64,000 bases of DNA from a virus (Duplodnaviria; Caudoviricetes): positions 1-64,000 of IMG/VR virus record IMGVR_UViG_3300031998_000051. One strand, 5' to 3'. Position 1 is the stretch's first letter. Each line of letters begins with the position of its first letter. Below the pieces are notes generated by a model. It worked only from the letters and a program-made list of their open reading frames with translations, was not told where the DNA came from and ran no database searches. The translations under genes and the position numbers were made by a program. Shown here piece after piece: positions 1 to 49,360 of this stretch.

Positions 1-102
1 CTCTCGAAAAAACTTTTTTGAGTTCAAAGACCGGATTGACCTATCCTGACTTTTAACCGCCGCCCTGGGCGGCTATCTGGACATGAAAATGAAGGTGAAA
101 TA

Positions 103-40573: not shown

Positions 40574-40582
40574 CGCTTCCAA

Positions 40583-40819
40583 AGTTGGCATGACCGTGGA
40601 CGGGTGCCAGCTCACTACCAACCGCATGACTGTGATCAGATGCAGGTTGTCGACTTGATCGGTATGACCGTGGACGGGTACCGATTGCCAGGTAAACAGC
40701 ATGGCCGTGGACGGGTGCTGCTGGCGCGTTTCAACCGCTGTTCACAAATGGCTGCTGACCGTGGACGGAGTAGTCGTGAACCGCAAATCCATCGCCGTTG
40801 ACTGTGATCAGAACGGCGA
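40583..40819 (+). ncRNA. Array of six hairpins with variable stems and conserved 14-nt apical motifs
   Basis: TGACCGTGGACGGG-type at 40591, 40665, 40702, 40756 and TGACTGTGATCAGA at 40627, 40799, each closed by complementary flanks. Confidence 0.65.
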
Positions 40820-40921
40820 GAAACCGACCGGGAATCATTAAGGCAAGCATCGACCGACGGAGCCGCAAAAGCTCAAATTTGCAAGTTTCAAATCCAAAAC
40901 TTGCAAAAATCGGCCACAAAA

Positions 40922-41111
40922 TTTTTCACAACCGCTGGTATATATAGGTTGTGAATGCGAATTGAAGAATGAAGGATTTTTGCAACTGCAATTCACAAGT
41001 GATGGTTACCACCACACAGGGTAAGGGCTTAAATGCCCGCCCTTACCTGTGAAGTGGAAACCAGTAACCCGCGACGCCTGAGAATGGCGGTCATGAGCAG
41101 GTTGTGAATGG
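40922..41111. repeat. Second copy of the TCACAACC/TATATATA/hairpin element (ori-like)
   Basis: 40922-40962 versus 2536-2578; hairpin 41015-41051; paired GGTTGTGAA at 41100-41119. Confidence 0.8.
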
Positions 41112-41147
41112 GTTGTGAAAAACAGAACGAGAAAAGGAGGTACCCGA

Positions 41148-42164
41148 ATGGGATTGAAGATCAGTTCCGGCAAAATCCCACGCGCTCAAAAGGTTGTGCT
41201 GTACGGCGTTGAAGGCATCGGCAAAACAACTCTTGCGGCAAAGATGCCGGATCCGCTGTTTATCGACACCGAGGGCGGCACCGCCCACATGGATGTCAAG
41301 CGCATCGACGGAATCGGCTCATGGGAGCAGCTGATCGCAACAGTGGAGGAAGTCGCCGAAACACCCGGCGTTTGCAAAACGCTGGTGATTGACACCGCCG
41401 ACTGGGCCGAGAAGGTTTGCATCGAATACCTTTTCGAAAAGAACAGCTGGACGAGCATTGAAACGCCCGGTTATGGCAAAGGCTACGTTGCGATTCGGGA
41501 GGAATTCATAAGGCTCCTGGACGCCTGTGACAAAGTCATCGCCGCAGGAATCAACGTGGTGATTACCGCCCATGCGAAGGTGAACAAAGTCGAACTTCCG
41601 GATGAGATGACGGCATATGACCGCTGGGAACTCAAACTCACCAAGCAGACTGCGCCGCTATTGAAAGAATGGCCGGATGCGCTGCTGTTCGCCAACTACA
41701 AAACGCTGGTTGTGACTACTGGCGACGGTCCGAACAAGACAGGCAAGGGCACCGGCGGCAAGCGCGTCATCTATACGACACACAAACCCGCATACGACGC
41801 CAAGAACCGTCACGGCCTGCCGGATGAAGTGGAGATGCGGTATTCCAATATCAAATCCATCTTCAACGATAATCCCGTGGTGATGGAATTACCGAAGAAG
41901 GAACCCAGCACACCTGCGCAGACCGTGGAGCCGCCCGCCGAGCCTATCAAGGAAGAAACGCTCGAAACCATCAACCAGATGATGAACGATGCTGGCGTCA
42001 GCGCCGAGGAAGTCCAGAGCGTAGTGGCAAAGAAGAGCGGCAAATTTGCTGCCGAGACGCCCATCTCTGAGTATTCCGAGAAGTTCGCCCAGAACTGGCT
42101 GATCAAGAACTGGCAGCGCGTGGTGAATACCATCGAGAACGACCCGAACCATGTACCTATCTGA
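41148..42164 (+). CDS. AAA_24 / Sak4-like single-strand annealing ATPase
   Basis: YGVEGIGKTT, FIDTEGG, LVIDTAD, YGKGY, AYDAKNR. Confidence 0.9.
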   Translation: MGLKISSGKIPRAQKVVLYGVEGIGKTTLAAKMPDPLFIDTEGGTAHMDVKRIDGIGSWEQLIATVEEVAETPGVCKTLVIDTADWAEKVCIEYLFEKNSWTSIETPGYGKGYVAIREEFIRLLDACDKVIAAGINVVITAHAKVNKVELPDEMTAYDRWELKLTKQTAPLLKEWPDALLFANYKTLVVTTGDGPNKTGKGTGGKRVIYTTHKPAYDAKNRHGLPDEVEMRYSNIKSIFNDNPVVMELPKKEPSTPAQTVEPPAEPIKEETLETINQMMNDAGVSAEEVQSVVAKKSGKFAAETPISEYSEKFAQNWLIKNWQRVVNTIENDPNHVPI

Positions 42165-44053: not shown

Positions 44054-46096
44054 ATGGATAGCGTCACAGAGAGAAGGGTCTTAGCAGCGCTTGAAGCCAT
44101 CCCTGTTGCGGATCTTACGCGGGATGATTGGATCGCTGTTGGTATGGCTTTGAAGGATGAGGGATTCTCTGTTGGCGTCTGGGATGATTGGAGCCGGAAT
44201 GACCGCCGATATCACCAGGGCGAATGCCAGAAAAAATGGGATGGCTTCAAGGGCAGCTCAAAGCCCAAGACAATAGCGACTGTTTTCCAGATGGCGAAGG
44301 AACGCGGCTGGACAGAATTCGACGGCAATGCAGCGATTGGATGGGATGATGCCATTGAATACGATGGTGATGAATCGGGATTACCGAGTACAGCACCAAA
44401 GAAAAACTGGGATCCCGTTCAAGACCTGATTACTTACCTGGAAACGCTTTTCAAGCCGGATGAGAAGGTCGCTTACATCACGAATGAAGTCTGGAAGAAC
44501 GATGATGGCAAATGGGTACCGAGCGGAAAGGGCGTTTATAATCGGACAGTCGGAGAGCTGATCCAATCGCTTAGAAAGCATCCTGATGACATCGGCGCGA
44601 CAGTTGGCGATTATAAGCCGGAAGCCGGAGCATGGATTCGCGTCAATCCCGTAGACGGTAACGGCGTCAAGAACGACAACGTCACCAGCTTCCGATATAC
44701 GCTGGTTGAATCCGATATCTTGCCGATTGCGGAACAGAATGCACTTTTCCGCAAGATGGAATTACCAATAGCGGCGATGGTTCACAGCGGTGGGAAATCG
44801 CTTCATGCGATTGTTCATATCGACGCTGGCAGCTATGAAGAATACCAGAAGCGCGTGGAATACCTCTACAGCTTCATGGAAAAGAACGGAATAGCGATTG
44901 ACAAACAGAATCGCAACCCATCACGACTGAGCCGAATGCCCGGTATCATGCGAGGTGGGAATCGGCAATACCTGGTAGCAACCAATATCGGGCGCAAGAG
45001 CTGGAACGACTGGATGGAATTCGCGGAAGGCTCATCTGATGAACTGCCTGGCATTGTTGAATTGTCCGACTTGCTTGCGGATCCGCCGCCGTTGGCACCG
45101 ACATTGATTGATGGAGTCCTCCGGCGCGGACATAAGATGCTGATCTCCGGCAGCAGTAAAGCCGGTAAATCGTTTCTGCTGATGCAATTAGCTGTAGCGA
45201 TTGCGGAAGGTCAACAATGGCTCGGCTTCCAGTGTTCGCAAGGGCGCGTGCTTTACGTCAATCTGGAAATCGATAAGGCATCATGCGCTAACCGATTCGC
45301 CGTAATCCGCAAAGAACTCAAGACCCGCAATGTCTATGAATGCAGTCACGAGAACAATCTTCTGATCTGGAATCTTCGCGGATACGCTGTGCCATTAGAT
45401 TTATTGGTGCCAAAGCTGATCCACAGAACACGGGACTTGAATCTGGACGCCATCATCATTGACCCAATCTACAAGGTCATTACGGGCGATGAGAATAACG
45501 CCAGCGATATGGGCGCGTTCTGCAACCAGTTCGACAAGATCGCCACGGAGCTGGGCGCGGCGGTGATCTACTGCCACCACCACAGCAAAGGCGCACAAGG
45601 AGCCAAACGGGCGATGGACAGGGCGTCAGGCTCCGGCGTGTTCGCCAGGGACCCGGATGCGCAGTTGGACTTGCTGGAGGTCGAATTAAGCGATGCACAG
45701 TTATTCTCCTTCGGAGGCAACAACGTCACGGCTTTTCGATTGGAAAGCTCACTACGTGAATTTCCGAACTTCAAACCAATCAACATCTGGTTTGAGTATC
45801 CGCTTCACAGAGTGGATAAAGATGGCGTTTTAAGGGACGCACCCGCACAGGGAACGCCAGCGGCAGGACGCACAAAGAACAAGCACAGCCAGACCGCAAC
45901 GGATGCACGATTGGCCTTTGACAACGCTTACGATGTTCTGAACATGGACGGCGACAGCGTTTCAGCGGACGAGATGGCGAGTTACCTTGAGCAGGATGTC
46001 AAAACGATCTACCGCAAAGCAAGAGATTACGACGGATACGTACTGGACAAAAAGCGGGTTTACCGCATAGGTGGTGAAACGAATGACGGAGATTGA
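44054..46096 (+). CDS. Primase-helicase: PriCT_2 + primase-like + AAA_25 (RecA-type) helicase
   Basis: WIAVGMALK..WDDWS; VHSGGKSLHA; SGSSKAGKS, IIIDP, HHHSKG. Confidence 0.9.
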   Translation: MDSVTERRVLAALEAIPVADLTRDDWIAVGMALKDEGFSVGVWDDWSRNDRRYHQGECQKKWDGFKGSSKPKTIATVFQMAKERGWTEFDGNAAIGWDDAIEYDGDESGLPSTAPKKNWDPVQDLITYLETLFKPDEKVAYITNEVWKNDDGKWVPSGKGVYNRTVGELIQSLRKHPDDIGATVGDYKPEAGAWIRVNPVDGNGVKNDNVTSFRYTLVESDILPIAEQNALFRKMELPIAAMVHSGGKSLHAIVHIDAGSYEEYQKRVEYLYSFMEKNGIAIDKQNRNPSRLSRMPGIMRGGNRQYLVATNIGRKSWNDWMEFAEGSSDELPGIVELSDLLADPPPLAPTLIDGVLRRGHKMLISGSSKAGKSFLLMQLAVAIAEGQQWLGFQCSQGRVLYVNLEIDKASCANRFAVIRKELKTRNVYECSHENNLLIWNLRGYAVPLDLLVPKLIHRTRDLNLDAIIIDPIYKVITGDENNASDMGAFCNQFDKIATELGAAVIYCHHHSKGAQGAKRAMDRASGSGVFARDPDAQLDLLEVELSDAQLFSFGGNNVTAFRLESSLREFPNFKPINIWFEYPLHRVDKDGVLRDAPAQGTPAAGRTKNKHSQTATDARLAFDNAYDVLNMDGDSVSADEMASYLEQDVKTIYRKARDYDGYVLDKKRVYRIGGETNDGD

Positions 46097-47071: not shown

Positions 47072-47806
47072 ATGGCTACCACCGCAAAGAAGAACACGGA
47101 TTCTCAGGAAATCATCATCAAGCCGGTTAAGATTCAGAAGGCCGACATCACCATCGTCGGCGACACGCCGCTGATCGTTCATGCCTGGTCGGAAAAGGCC
47201 AAGCGCGAGATGCTGGAAGCACAGCAGAAGTTGAAGAAAGACAAGAAGGCAAAGGAGATCAGGCTCCCGGCAAATGAGTTTGTGAGCGCGGCCTACTGGT
47301 TGACGCCTATGCCGGAGCTTGGAACCGATCCCAGCGGCAAGGACACGCTTGCCAACTTTGAAAAGGCCATCGCAGCGGGCGCGAAGTTCGGCTTTCCGAT
47401 CACGGCCATCAAGCAGGCGGCATTGGCGGCTTGCTACCGCGCAGGCATCATTCCCAACCAGATGGGCATGAAATGCAGCTTCTACCTCAACAGCAAGGAC
47501 GGTGTCAACCTCGGCACCGGTTCCGAGCTGGCGGTGATCCAGTCCGACAATCCGCCGGTGATGCGTGAGGATATGGTCAAAATCGGCGGCGTGTCCAAGA
47601 CGGCTGATTTGCGTTACCGCCCTATGTTCACCGATTGGAAAATCGATTTGACGGTCAGCCTGATTGATGTCGGCGTGTTCACGATGGAGTCGATCATCAA
47701 TGCGATCAACCTTTCGGGTTACATGGGCGGCATCGGCGAATGGCGCATGGAGCGCGATGGTGACTTCGGCCACTACCATGTGGAGATTGATGGAGAGAGG
47801 GTGTAA
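47072..47806 (+). CDS. Stand-alone Cas7/RAMP-like RNA-binding protein (candidate effector of the adjacent array)
   Basis: RAMP-like motifs in order: beta1 ITIVGDTPLIVH, FPITAIKQAAL (P..S.KG..R equivalent), C-terminal glycine loop GGIGEWRMERDGDFGHY; RBS AAGGAGG. Confidence 0.7.
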   Translation: MATTAKKNTDSQEIIIKPVKIQKADITIVGDTPLIVHAWSEKAKREMLEAQQKLKKDKKAKEIRLPANEFVSAAYWLTPMPELGTDPSGKDTLANFEKAIAAGAKFGFPITAIKQAALAACYRAGIIPNQMGMKCSFYLNSKDGVNLGTGSELAVIQSDNPPVMREDMVKIGGVSKTADLRYRPMFTDWKIDLTVSLIDVGVFTMESIINAINLSGYMGGIGEWRMERDGDFGHYHVEIDGERV

Positions 47807-47808
47807 TC

Positions 47809-48291
47809 TTGGCAGCGTTTGAATGCAAGTATTCGTACCGTGTGCCTGGGCTTCAAAAGGCTCCGGCAGAGGTTGCGGGCAAAGTGTTCGAGGAGCTGGC
47901 GAACAGTGAAAAAGGCTTATCGCCAAAGACGCTGGTAGATGCCAGCCGGGACGAGAATGCGCCGCTCCACGGAGAATTCGAATGGCGCGACGATGTGGCA
48001 GCAGAGAAATACCGCCTGTCTCAAGCGCAGGGCATTATCCAGAATCTGCGCATCGTGACAGTGCAGGCCGATGGTAGCGAGGCAATGGATCGTGCGTTTG
48101 TGGTTAAGCCTGGCGGCGAGAGCAATTATGTGGCGTTGCAAAGCGCATTGAGCCGTGAAGACTGGAAAGACCATCTGCTCGAAGAAGCCAGACGCGACGT
48201 CAAATGCTTCTTAGGCAAGTATCGCCGTTTGCGTGCTTTGTCTGGGATAACAAGTGCGATGGAGCAGTTTCTCCATAATGATGTCGGTTGA
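47809..48291 (+). CDS. Partner protein of the RAMP-like gene
   Basis: TTG start 2 nt after RAMP stop; LSPKTLVDASRDENAPLHGEFEWRDDVAAEKYR. Confidence 0.7.
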   Translation: MAAFECKYSYRVPGLQKAPAEVAGKVFEELANSEKGLSPKTLVDASRDENAPLHGEFEWRDDVAAEKYRLSQAQGIIQNLRIVTVQADGSEAMDRAFVVKPGGESNYVALQSALSREDWKDHLLEEARRDVKCFLGKYRRLRALSGITSAMEQFLHNDVG

Positions 48292-48298
48292 CGGTTGC

Positions 48299-49360
48299 GT
48301 AGGGCTCCGTTATAAAAAAGCCTGAGACATGGTAAGGATTGGCGGGTTGGAGTTAGGTATGGCGGCGAGGGTTATGGCAGTCGAGGATAGGCGCGGAAAG
48401 TTGCGGTTGCGCGGAGTATGGCAAGGCACGGTATGGCAGTCTCGGAGGGGCACGTTAGTGCGCGGAGGGGCTTGCTCCGGATGCGAGGGGCTTGTCAAGG
48501 CAGTCTTGGAACGTTTCGGTTCGGTGCGTACAGGTGTTGCACGGTAAGGCTGGGCAGTCTTGGTTCGGTTAGGCATGGAGCTGTTAGTTCCGGCTTGATG
48601 AGGCAGTCGAGGATGGGTCAGGCGCGTAAACGGTGCGGCATGGTGCGGTCCGGCGCGGCAGTCGTGGACAGGAATGCAATGTCAATGTGAGTATAGGCAT
48701 GATGCGGATCTGAACGGTGTGGCAGTAATGGATCGGTCAGTCGCGTAAAGGCGCGGCGGCGCACGGTTAGGCAGTCTCGGATGGGCAGTGCGATGTTACG
48801 GATGGTTCCGGCAATGTTCGGCTGGGCGCTGCAAGGCTTGGCAGTCTCGGATTGTTTCGGCGATGCTCGTTGAGGCAAAGCTGGGTATGGCAGTCTTGGA
48901 ATGTCAGCGCGTGTTGACGATTGCACCGGCGCGGCAGGAATGCCACGGGTTATGTAGGGCTCCCGGTCAACAAAAGCCCGAGACATGGAGAGTAGAGGCT
49001 GGTCTGTGTTTGGTATGGTTTGAAGAGGTATGGCAGTCGTGGACAGGAACGGATCGGTCAGTCCCGTATCGTTAAAGCAAGTAGGGTATCGGTTCGGTTT
49101 GGCAGTTAAGGACAGGACAGGCTTGGAAGGTATGGTGGGTTTTGCATTGTATCGGATAGTTTTGTCATGGCAGTCAAGGCGAGGCGCGGAAGTGAGTGGC
49201 TTGTCGCGGATTCGCACGGAGTGTATCTGTGTGGCAGTTCTGGAAGCGATGGGTTAGGCTCGTACAGGCAAGGTAACGCGGGTTGTGGCAGCCGAGGATA
49301 GTTGCGGACGCGCCTGTCAAGTTGGTGCCTGGTGAGCCGTGTTGGGACAAGGCAGTCACG
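48299..49360 (+). ncRNA. Array of GGCAG-delimited units built from phased GG(Y/A)NN pentamers, with two leaders
   Basis: 17 GGCAG delimiters; 12 of 15 spacings equal 5n+4; leader GTAGGGCTCC...AGCC(T/C)GAGACATGG at 48299 and 48954. Confidence 0.85.

What the first reader, a model, noticed from the sequence alone, without database searches (positions are those of the whole stretch)
48333..49360. Unit grammar of the array: GGCAG + 4 nt + n x (GG(Y/A)-NN)
Seen: delimiters at 48376, 48435, 48499, 48553, 48602, 48657, 48721, 48770, 48840, 48889, 48933, 49032, 49101, 49169, 49233, 49287, 49351. Spacings are 59, 64, 54, 49, 55, 64, 49, 70, 49, 44 and 69, 68, 64, 54, 64, so 12 of 15 equal 5n+4. Example from 48376: GGCAG TCGA GGATA GGCGC GGAAA GTTGC GGTTG CGCGG AGTAT GGCAA GGCAC GGTAT. 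Extracted NN strings: TA-GC-AA-GC-TG-GG-AT-AA-AC-AT (48376), AC-TC-TC-GC-CA-GT-AC-AA-TG (48499), CA-AC-TC-CA-CC-TC-AA-AA-GG-TC-TC-TT (49032). Every unit is different, like spacers, giving 7-12 dinucleotides per guide.
Basis: seen in the sequence. Interest (0 to 1): 0.85.

Follow-up and report, generated by a model that had tools for sequence, protein, structure and literature searches.

The report
Phage VIPR guide-RNA array (staggered type)
The 1-kb run of five-base GG-beads is the guide-RNA array of a phage VIPR system, a CRISPR-related RNA-guided DNA-silencing system first described in 2026 preprints, and three of its guides spell genes of rival phages; it is a real, clearly readable new example of a known kind.

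Summary
All 17 listed GGCAG delimiters are present, 12 of 15 unit lengths equal 5n+4, and GG recurs every 5 nt.

The grammar is better written as a 4-nt step CAGT followed by k x (H-N-N-G-G), with k = 8-13 here. About 20 other IMG/VR phage contigs carry the same array (185 of 209 units are 5n+4). In 19 of the 21 contigs (window included) one or both of two genes lie beside it:
- a 244-aa protein (47072-47806) whose predicted fold matches CRISPR Cas7/Csm3 RAMPs (Z 10.4);
- a 160-aa partner (47809-48291).

This is the published VIPR system: a Vipr protein, a vap gene and vrRNAs of GGY/NN repeats (bioRxiv 10.64898/2026.04.26.720920). Its tail-less architecture probably corresponds to the paper's "staggered" arrays.

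I tested the published 1-nt-skip rule (target NNxNNx...):
- Guide 49169 matches 24/24 in 13 viral contigs; an 11-dinucleotide version hits 39 genome contigs, mostly gut/rumen Clostridia. The target is a DUF7307 gene. A reversed control gave 0 hits.
- Guide 48721 matches an SF2 helicase gene.
- The first guide matches rival phages' vipr genes 19/20, and its own vipr 17/20.
- Skip bases fall on codon position 3.
- Guides of other VIPR phages match this phage's Sak4-like and primase-helicase genes.

The scan has reported VIPR loci many times, including this array type.

The parts
47072..47806 (+). vipr gene (244 aa), a Cas7-like RAMP protein
   Evidence: AlphaFold model has pLDDT 80.6. Foldseek top hits are all Cas7/Csm3. 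VIA-align gives Csm3 9g9a_D Z 10.4, and the top 37 rows are all CRISPR RAMPs. hhalign to the Vipr-like protein of Shigella phage Z31 gives prob 97.8%, E 1.2e-12. It matches phrog_4652. Homologs lie beside the arrays in 17 contigs, window included.
47809..48291 (+). vap-type accessory gene (160 aa)
   Evidence: It starts 2 nt after vipr. Homologs accompany the arrays in 17 other contigs; the window's own copy joins them only in alignment A2, at 17-86% identity. It matches phrog_15946. The model has pLDDT 88. Only weak fold matches were found, nearly all to winged-helix domains, Z 5.5 or below. It is not similar to the second gene of the Z31 locus.
48288..48316 (+). Candidate sigma-70-type promoter: TTGACG, 17 nt, TATAAA, overlapping the vap stop codon
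   Evidence: Read from the sequence. The consensus scan missed it because the last base of the -10 hexamer is A. A similar arrangement is present in relative G001. This is inference only.
48302..48327 (+). Leader box 1: GGGCT, an A-rich loop, AGCCT, then GAGA
   Evidence: The box is repeated at 48957-48983 and occurs twice in relative G001, with a G-C to G-U change in the stem. Its role is unknown.
48328..48377 (+). First guide of sub-array 1 (10 pentamers), aimed at vipr genes
   Evidence: Under the 1-nt skip rule it matches 19/20 in the vipr genes of relatives G001 and G002, and 17/20 in its own vipr at 47705-47733. The match is in frame.
48376..48938 (+). Sub-array 1: heads GGCAGT at 48376, 48435, 48499, 48553, 48602, 48657, 48721, 48770, 48840 and 48889, closing with GGCAGG at 48933
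   Evidence: Units are 59, 64, 54, 49, 55, 64, 49, 70, 49 and 44 nt long.
48727..48771 (+). Guide 48721 (9 pentamers), aimed at an SF2 (ResIII/DEAD) helicase gene of other phages
   Evidence: With the 6th dinucleotide written G[AC], the pattern hits 9 IMG/VR contigs. All encode YVP[AS]FAWEM in a helicase of 526-618 aa (about 526 in most); the five loci checked are in frame. Three contigs match the window's own version 18/18.
48957..48983 (+). Leader box 2
48984..49033 (+). First guide of sub-array 2 (10 pentamers)
   Evidence: No significant target was found.
49032..49356 (+). Sub-array 2: heads at 49032, 49101, 49169, 49233, 49287 and 49351
   Evidence: Units are 69, 68, 64, 54 and 64 nt long.
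49175..49234 (+). Guide 49169 (12 pentamers), aimed at a DUF7307 (Pam3 gp33-like) gene in the replication module of other phages
   Evidence: The first 9 NN hit 33 IMG/VR contigs; 13 of these match 24/24 and 18 match 22/24 over the full guide. Skip bases vary between targets. The gene is PF23984, E 1e-36. An 11-NN pattern hits 39 genome contigs, mostly gut/rumen Clostridia. The reversed control gave 0 hits.
47705..47733 (+). Site in the phage's own vipr (codons I212-G220) resembling the first guide's target, with 3 mismatches
   Evidence: The window encodes INLSGYMGG where relatives have INLGG(Y/F)MGG. S215 is unique to the window in alignment A1.
41193..41485 (.). Three sites in this phage's Sak4-like AAA_24 gene matched by guides of other VIPR phages (G015 twice, G001 once)
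   Evidence: Matches are 19/22, 19/22 and 18/20 under the 1-nt skip rule, all with the skip base on codon position 3. Pfam AAA_24, E 1.6e-58.
45503..45534 (-). Site in this phage's primase-helicase gene matched 20/22 by a guide of phage G003
   Evidence: the skip base is on codon position 3. The gene carries PriCT_2 and AAA_25 domains.

Best explanation
The tract is the vrRNA array of a phage VIPR system (Viral Interference Programmable Repeat).

Shown here:
- A Cas7-like RAMP gene (vipr) and an accessory gene (vap) lie directly upstream on the same strand.
- The array consists of guides built from 8-13 pentamers H-N-N-G-G, separated only by a 4-nt step CAGT.
- Related phages share the GG-H scaffold but not the NN content.
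- NN strings of three guides match genes of other phages when every third target base is skipped, with the skipped base on the codon wobble position.

Taken from the VIPR papers, not tested here: one Vipr protomer binds each pentamer and sequesters GGY. The NN bases pair with double-stranded DNA in a gapped R-loop/triplex, and binding represses transcription of the target.

Inferred:
- The array is transcribed from a promoter at the end of vap, or read through from vipr-vap.
- The 4-nt step breaks the 5-nt register, so a filament cannot run on into the next guide; it also marks where guides are cut apart.
- The phage uses the guides to silence replication-module genes (DUF7307, SF2 helicase) of competing phages or prophages of gut/rumen Clostridia, and the vipr genes of close relatives.
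- Its own vipr escapes through three mismatches.
For: Array grammar and family:
- Grammar and periodicity are shown.
- The same array occurs in about 20 IMG/VR contigs, with 185 of 209 units at 5n+4.
- Homologs of the two genes lie beside the array: gene A in 17 contigs (window included), gene B in 17.

Protein evidence:
- Vipr has a RAMP fold: Foldseek top hits are Cas7/Csm3 at E 3e-5, and VIA-align gives Z 10.4 to Csm3 with 37 RAMP rows on top.
- tblastn finds homologs in Gordonia and Mycobacterium phages and in Felixounavirus Z31. The Ecliptus and Z31 loci inspected carry YNNGG arrays.
- hhalign to the Z31 protein gives 97.8% and covers YRP..W and G-x-G-(D/E)-W-R. These correspond to the thumb Arg and the G-loop D177/W178/R179 that contact GG in the published structure.

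Published description.

Targets:
- Guide 49169: 33 viral contigs match the first 9 NN; 13 match 24/24 over the full guide, with variable skip bases. Other skip lengths reach at most 18/24. The reversed control gave 0 hits. An 11-NN pattern gave 39 genome contigs against about 0.07 expected by chance.
- Guide 48721: 9 contigs, all at the same helicase motif.
- First guide: 19/20 in rivals' vipr, 17/20 in its own.
- Family-wide: 7 guides reach E < 0.01 at skip 1, against 2, 2 and 4 at skips 0, 2 and 3, 0/0/0 in shuffles and 1 reversed.
- All four hits inside this phage have the skip base on codon position 3.
- Near-identical phages share no identical guide.
Against: - No expression or processing data exist, so vrRNA ends are unknown.
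- No sigma-70 terminator was found. Only one hand-read promoter was found, and the second leader has no convincing promoter.
- Eleven of 14 cleanly parsed guides have no identified target. Two full-length patterns and one 9-NN pattern gave 0 hits.
- The first guide matches its own vipr at 85%, above the 80% threshold at which the paper reports no self-hits.
- There is no structured 3' tail like that of the characterised type II systems.
- Many pentamers here are degenerate: 4-8 of 9-13 per guide have a full GG.
- The vap fold assignment is weak, Z 5.5 or below.
Confidence: 0.93

Rival explanations
1. The tract is a periodic protein-binding scaffold with no guide function. Examples would be a G-rich RNA sponge for a host RNA-binding protein of the CsrA or TRAP type, or an R-loop-forming replication origin placed after the replication genes.
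For: The tract has strong G skew and is C-poor. It lies next to helicase and primase-helicase genes. The heads contain GGA motifs.
Against: The NN positions carry information. There are perfect 24/24 and 18/18 gapped matches to genes of other phages, while the reversed control found none. The array travels with the RAMP gene rather than with replication genes, and sometimes sits between vipr and vap. NN content turns over completely between near-identical phages.
Confidence: 0.03
2. The tract is a degenerate CRISPR array, or a type III toxin-antitoxin RNA repeat array.
For: It is a tandem array of units with a constant part and a variable part, next to a Cas7-like protein.
Against: The constant part is only about 7-12 nt and there is no palindromic repeat of 23-50 nt. 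The variable parts have a 5-nt internal scaffold. Neither of the two locus proteins matches any PADLOC defence-protein model, and Pfam on the flanking genes found no cas or toxin domains. ToxI-type repeats are near-identical 34-36-nt units next to an endoribonuclease toxin, according to abstracts seen and my own knowledge. Rfam gave no hit.
Confidence: 0.01
3. The tract is protein-coding repeat DNA, since GGCAGTCNNGGA can read as collagen-like Gly-Ser-X-Gly.
For: The same 12-mer pattern occurs in many viral contigs as coding repeats whose unit lengths are multiples of 9.
Against: Here unit lengths are 5n+4 and the internal period is 5, which cannot keep a reading frame. The only ORFs across the tract are short, overlapping ones in several frames.
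Confidence: 0.005

Closest known systems
VIPR systems (Vipr + vap + vrRNA): bioRxiv 10.64898/2026.04.26.720920 (PMC13142463); structures in 10.64898/2026.04.26.720927; phage-satellite competition in 10.64898/2026.10.15.759431
   Same: It is phage-encoded. It has a lone RAMP protein plus one accessory gene. Guides consist of 8-16 pentamers with a conserved GG and a hypervariable NN. Targets obey the 1-nt skip rule with the skip base on the wobble position. Targets are genes of competing mobile elements, including rival vipr genes. Self-match is lower than non-self match.
   Different: It has no structured 3' tail or pseudoknot as in the characterised type II systems (SUSP1, P. fulva). Guides abut with only a 4-nt CAGT step, which probably corresponds to the paper's 'staggered arrays' (fig. 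S18, which the paper does not list among the experimentally confirmed architectures). Position 3 accepts A (23%) as well as C/T, whereas the SUSP1 pocket is described as excluding purines. The vap gene is unrelated in sequence to the second gene of the Felixounavirus Z31 locus. The type (I-VII) could not be assigned because the paper's classification data are not held.
Class 1 CRISPR-Cas backbone (Cas7/Csm3/Cmr4 filaments on crRNA)
   Same: It shares the RAMP fold with a glycine-rich loop. One protomer binds each short RNA segment, and bases are periodically excluded from pairing.
   Different: The period is 5 nt with 2 pairing bases, rather than 6 nt with 5 pairing bases. No CRISPR repeats, cas1/cas2, Cas5/Cas6/large subunit or nuclease were seen near the array. 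Sequence specificity for the scaffold (GGH) lies inside the guide.
Vipr-like loci in Gordonia phage Ecliptus (OP820472) and Mycobacterium phages such as Quico and Donkeykong, currently annotated as hypothetical proteins
   Same: They are the best sequence relatives among isolated phages (E 3e-19 and about 1e-9). Ecliptus has a GGCAGG-stepped YNNGG array directly after the gene, with the same lag-4+5k stagger.
   Different: They are actinobacteriophages, the array is much shorter, and the gene context differs (Ecliptus: between tail genes).

Membership tests
VIPR system | Vipr protein with a RAMP fold (RRM core, G-loop, thumb) | tested here: met
   The model has pLDDT 80.6. Foldseek top hits are all Cas7/Csm3/Cas7-11/Csf2. 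VIA-align gives Z 10.4, rmsd 4.2, 154 aligned residues to Csm3 9g9a_D, and ranks 1-37 are all CRISPR RAMPs.
VIPR system | Sequence homology to a Vipr of a characterised clade, and conservation of the GG-binding residues (G-loop D-W-R, thumb Arg) | tested here: met
   hhalign of A1 against the Z31 protein gives prob 97.8%, E 1.2e-12. W224 and R225 are nearly invariant, R181 and R183 are invariant, and D/E precedes W. That the Z31 protein is a SUSP1-type Vipr is inferred from its locus: one array upstream, three downstream, each with a tail.
VIPR system | vrRNAs of about 9-16 YNNGG repeats with conserved GGY and hypervariable NN | tested here: met
   k = 8-13 in the window (8-16 by unit length in the family). 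The pentamer logo is G .87, G/T .75/.18, H (G .01), N, N. Phages whose Vipr is 90-92% identical share no guide.
VIPR system | Minimal locus of vipr plus one vap gene, with no CRISPR array or cas operon, mostly in viruses | tested here: met
   Two genes are conserved beside the array across the family. The record is an IMG/VR virus of 77.8 kb. Flanking genes are helicase, primase-helicase and RusA. Vipr and vap themselves have no PADLOC hit.
VIPR system | Targets follow the 1-nt skip rule (NNxNNx), with the skip base on the codon wobble position | tested here: met
   Guide 49169 matches 24/24 in 13 viral contigs, and other skip lengths reach at most 18/24. The reversed control gave 0 hits. Guide 48721 and the first guide also have in-frame targets. 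Eleven other guides have no target found.
VIPR system | No self-targeting at 80% NN match or above | tested here: inconclusive
   Of the 14 guides, 12 score below 80% on their own genome. Guide 48889 reaches 13/16 = 81%, which is chance level (E 0.59). The first guide reaches 17/20 = 85% in its own vipr, against 95% in relatives. This is either escape by mismatch or autoregulation.
VIPR system | vrRNAs are expressed, processed and bound by Vipr; the complex represses target DNA | not testable with these tools
   This needs RNA-seq, pull-down and reporter assays.
Type II VIPR (SUSP1 / P. fulva) | Each vrRNA ends in an invariable structured 3' tail (pseudoknot), with vap1 as partner | tested here: not met
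   Only CAGT separates guides. The Z31 locus shows tails of about 45 nt for comparison. vap is not similar to the Z31 second gene.
CRISPR-Cas | Direct repeats of about 23-50 nt separating contiguous spacers; cas1/cas2 or an effector operon | tested here: not met
   The constant part is 7-12 nt and the variable part is scaffolded at 5 nt. Tandem Repeats Finder finds no repeat. No cas domains were found in neighbouring genes; the two locus proteins have no PADLOC hit.

The most novel reading that the evidence does not exclude
The tail-less, CAGT-stepped array would be a mechanistically distinct VIPR variant. Guide boundaries would be set by a one-base break in the 5-nt register rather than by a structured tail. 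The Vipr pocket for position 3 would exclude only G. The promoter-proximal guide would be an anti-VIPR weapon whose own gene carries an escape codon (S215), or an autoregulator. On this reading the phage sits in a reciprocal targeting network among phages of gut/rumen Clostridia, aimed at each other's replication genes.
Probability: 0.4. Interest if true: 0.45.

Novelty: new member of a known kind. Interest (0 to 1): 0.3.

Why it matters
The locus independently reproduces the published VIPR code on an uncultivated phage that was not in the papers' NCBI-based set. Targets obey the 1-nt skip rule with wobble-position tolerance.

It documents the tail-less, stepped array architecture in about 20 phage contigs with simple rules: CAGT + k pentamers, with A allowed at position 3.

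It also gives concrete predicted conflicts. This phage targets DUF7307 and SF2-helicase genes of other phages or prophages (DUF7307 mostly in Clostridia genomes) and the vipr genes of its relatives. It is itself matched by guides of three other VIPR phages. These predictions are directly testable, but they do not change the known picture.

Tried and rejected
Searches that found nothing relevant:
- Rfam found nothing relevant.
- Tandem Repeats Finder found nothing in the array.
- blastn of the array against isolated phages gave no match.
- Pfam, NCBIfam and PADLOC gave nothing for the two genes.
- Foldseek gave no match for vap.
- The search for related loci failed or found nothing for the A1 alignment, for Vipr in genome contigs and for the Sak4-like protein in viral contigs.

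Ideas considered before the literature hit, and dropped:
- TRAP-like or CsrA sponge RNA, Chi-site cluster, primase sites, centromere or iteron array, R-loop origin, G-quadruplex array.
- They were dropped once the RAMP fold and the gapped targets were found.

False positives of the DNA pattern:
- Collagen-like coding repeats in other contigs share GGCAGTCNNGGA but have units that are multiples of 9.

Target searches with no significant result:
- Exact full-length 1-nt-skip patterns of guides 48376 and 48499, and the first 9 NN of guide 49032, gave 0 hits in IMG/VR.
- The first small local search (2.3 Mb) showed no overall enrichment over shuffles.
- The other window guides have no significant hit in the 311 kb of target loci.

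Other checks:
- The constant AG of the step is not part of the pairing: the target bases after the last NN are not conserved.
- The VIPR type (I-VII) could not be assigned; the paper's tables are not held as text.

Full report
**1. The observation**

The tract 48328-49356 lies between a 160-aa ORF (47809-48291) and a RusA gene, in a complete 77.8-kb IMG/VR virus record.

Twelve of 15 equal 5n+4, with a binomial probability of about 1e-6.

GGCAGT occurs 16 times on the + strand of this 1 kb. The whole window has 56 on both strands, where shuffles give 27. GG-GG autocorrelation peaks at lags 5, 10, 15 and 20 (49, 45, 42, 43, against 3-13 at lags 2-4 and 6-8). It shows a second series at lags 9, 14, 19 and so on, which reflects the one-base phase slip per unit. 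GC skew is +0.32 to +0.41. Rfam, Tandem Repeats Finder and blastn against isolated phages gave nothing.

**2. A family, and a better grammar**

A gapped pattern made of two heads found more than 119 viral contigs. These fall into two classes:
- Collagen-like coding repeats, with units that are multiples of 9. These are unrelated.
- About 20 contigs with units of 39, 44, 49, ... 84 nt.

Pooled over the second class, 185 of 209 units are 4 mod 5. The pentamer logo is G .87, G/T .75/.18, H (G only .01), N, N.

The simplest parse is CAGT + k x (H-N-N-G-G), with k = 8-16 in the family and 8-13 here. Two further guides, not preceded by CAGT, follow two copies of a leader box, at 48328-48377 and 48984-49033.

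**3. Context**

In 19 of the 21 contigs (window included), homologs of one or both of two genes lie beside the array on the same strand; sometimes the array sits between them:
- Gene A is window 47072-47806 (244 aa, phrog_4652); homologs in 17 contigs, window included.
- Gene B is window 47809-48291 (160 aa, phrog_15946); clustered homologs in 17 other contigs, which the window's own copy joins in alignment A2.

Pfam, NCBIfam and PADLOC are silent on both.

Gene A:
- The AlphaFold model (pLDDT 80.6) matches only CRISPR RAMP backbone proteins. Foldseek finds type VII Cas7, Csm3, Cas7-11 and type IV Csf2 at E 3e-5. VIA-align finds Csm3 at Z 10.4, and 37 RAMP chains fill the top of the list.
- Its invariant or nearly invariant residues include R181, R183 (D-L-R-Y-R-P) and G-x-G-(D/E)-W224-R225.

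Gene B:
- The model is confident (pLDDT 88), but it has only weak matches. Nearly all are winged-helix domains at Z 5.5 or below, followed by a helical hairpin.

**4. What is known**

A literature search found the VIPR papers. They describe:
- Vipr, a RAMP protein proposed to predate CRISPR.
- vrRNAs made of 9-16 YNNGG repeats.
- One Vipr protomer per repeat, sequestering GGY through a beta-sheet His, a thumb Arg and a G-loop D-W-R.
- NN bases pairing with double-stranded DNA while every third target base is skipped, with skip bases falling on wobble positions.
- Targets that are competing phages, satellites and rival VIPR systems.
- Seven types, with array architectures that include "staggered arrays" offset by 1 nt.

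Sequence links from gene A to that family:
- tblastn finds homologs in Gordonia and Mycobacterium phages and in Felixounavirus Z31.
- The Z31 locus has one YNNGG array upstream and three downstream, each with a tail of about 45 nt. This matches the description of SUSP1.
- hhalign of the A1 profile to the Z31 protein gives 97.8% (E 1.2e-12) across YRP..W and GxG(D/E)WR.
- Gordonia phage Ecliptus has a GGCAGG-stepped array like ours.

**5. Testing the code**

(a) Family guides against family contigs. I ran 169 unique family guides against 655 kb of the 21 VIPR-bearing contigs, with arrays masked. The number of guides with a per-guide E below 0.01 was:

| Query set | Guides with E < 0.01 |
|---|---|
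| Skip 1 | 7 |
| Skip 0 | 2 |
| Skip 2 | 2 |
| Skip 3 | 4 (some are unmasked array copies) |
| Three shuffles, skip 1 | 0, 0, 0 |
| Reversed guides, skip 1 | 1 |

Four of the top five skip-1 hits land in this phage:
- Three converge on the Sak4-like AAA_24 gene, at 41193-41224, 41379-41410 and 41457-41485.
- One is in the primase-helicase gene, at 45503-45534.
- All four have the skip base on codon position 3.

(b) The window's own guides against IMG/VR.
- Guide 49169: the first 9 NN hit 33 contigs. Over all 12 NN, 13 match 24/24 and 18 match 22/24, while the skipped bases vary from contig to contig.
- Its target is a DUF7307 (Pam3 gp33-like) gene. In the one locus whose neighbours I scanned (L165) it lies between an SNF2 helicase and a DNA polymerase A.
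- In the same loci the other skip lengths reach at most 18/24.
- The reversed pattern gave 0 hits.
- The 11-NN pattern (22 fixed bases) found 39 genome contigs, where about 0.07 is expected by chance (my arithmetic). Nearly all are gut or rumen Clostridia, including Oribacterium, Faecalispora, Ruminococcus, Lachnospiraceae and Oscillospiraceae.
- With the Firmicutes affinities of the Sak4-like protein, this points to a Clostridia host. That is an inference.
- Guide 48721 has a one-dinucleotide variant in relative G002. It hits 9 contigs, all at the motif YVP[AS]FAWEM of an SF2 helicase of 526-618 aa (about 526 in most); the five loci checked are in frame.

(c) The promoter-proximal guide (48328-48377).
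- It matches the G-loop-coding part of vipr 19/20 in relatives G001 and G002.
- It matches its own vipr only 17/20 (47705-47733), where the window alone has Ser215 instead of Gly.
- This mirrors the published finding of vipr-targeting vrRNAs with lower self-match than non-self match.
- At 85%, autoregulation cannot be excluded.

(d) Negative results. Three other exact patterns gave no hit, and 11 of 14 guides remain without a target.

**6. Mechanism**

Shown here: the locus anatomy, the scaffold-versus-variable pattern, the RAMP fold and the gapped in-frame targets.

Adopted from the papers: filament assembly, triplex R-loop formation and transcriptional repression.

Inferred:
- Transcription starts from TTGACG-17-TATAAA at 48288-48316. 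The scan missed this, and relative G001 has a similar arrangement.
- The 4-nt step both breaks the filament register and marks the cut sites.

The constant AG of the step is not mirrored in targets. The leader box (GGGCT, A-rich loop, AGCC(C/T), GAGA) is conserved in four copies with a compensatory G-U change. Its role is unexplained.

**7. Verdict**

This is a genuine VIPR locus of the tail-less, stepped ("staggered") architecture. It is a new member of a known kind.

The scan has already reported VIPR loci in more than 100 genomes, including one stepped array of this type.

What this report adds:
- The explicit grammar of the array.
- The tolerance of A at pentamer position 3.
- Concrete targets for three guides.
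- Evidence that this phage is itself matched by guides of other VIPR phages.

Noticed in passing
window 41193-41485 and 45503-45534: Guides from three other VIPR-bearing phage contigs (G015, G001, G003) match this phage's Sak4-like ATPase gene and primase-helicase gene at 18/20 to 20/22 under the 1-nt skip rule, always with the skip base on codon position 3. This suggests reciprocal targeting among these phages.
   Followed up: partly
window 47705-47733: The first guide's best match in its own genome is inside its own vipr gene (17/20). The mismatches create Ser215 where all relatives have Gly. This is either an escape substitution or partial autoregulation.
   Followed up: partly
window 48302-48327 and 48957-48983: A duplicated leader box (GGGCT, 10-12-nt A-rich loop, AGCC(C/T), GAGA) precedes each sub-array and occurs twice in relative G001. 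The stem keeps pairing through a C-to-T (G-U) change. The first copy overlaps a near-consensus promoter; the second does not.
   Followed up: partly
window 40574-41114: A non-coding gap of about 540 bp lies upstream of the Sak4-like gene. Another first-stage note describes six tandem hairpins here (40583-40819). I did not examine it.
   Followed up: no
L129 3613-3874 (Gordonia phage Ecliptus OP820472) and Mycobacterium phages such as Quico and Donkeykong: These isolated actinophages carry Vipr homologs annotated as hypothetical proteins. Ecliptus has a GGCAGG-stepped YNNGG array directly downstream of the gene.
   Followed up: partly
L033, L049, L024, L075 and other loci: Many viral contigs contain GGCAGTCNNGGA as part of collagen-like (Gly-X-Y) coding repeats, with unit lengths of 63 or 72 nt or other multiples of 9. 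These are a source of false positives for DNA-pattern searches for this array type.
   Followed up: partly
L204-L242 (genome contigs): The DUF7307 target site of guide 49169 is conserved at all 22 fixed bases in 39 genome contigs, mostly gut and rumen Clostridia such as Oribacterium, Faecalispora, Ruminococcus and Lachnospiraceae. A few bins are labelled Alistipes, Prevotella, Moraxellaceae or Verrucomicrobiota; these may be mis-binned phage contigs.
   Followed up: no
window 48435-48498 versus G001 (L038 11786): Half-units are shared between otherwise different guides of related phages: the same last five pentamers follow different first halves. This suggests recombination within guides.
   Followed up: partly
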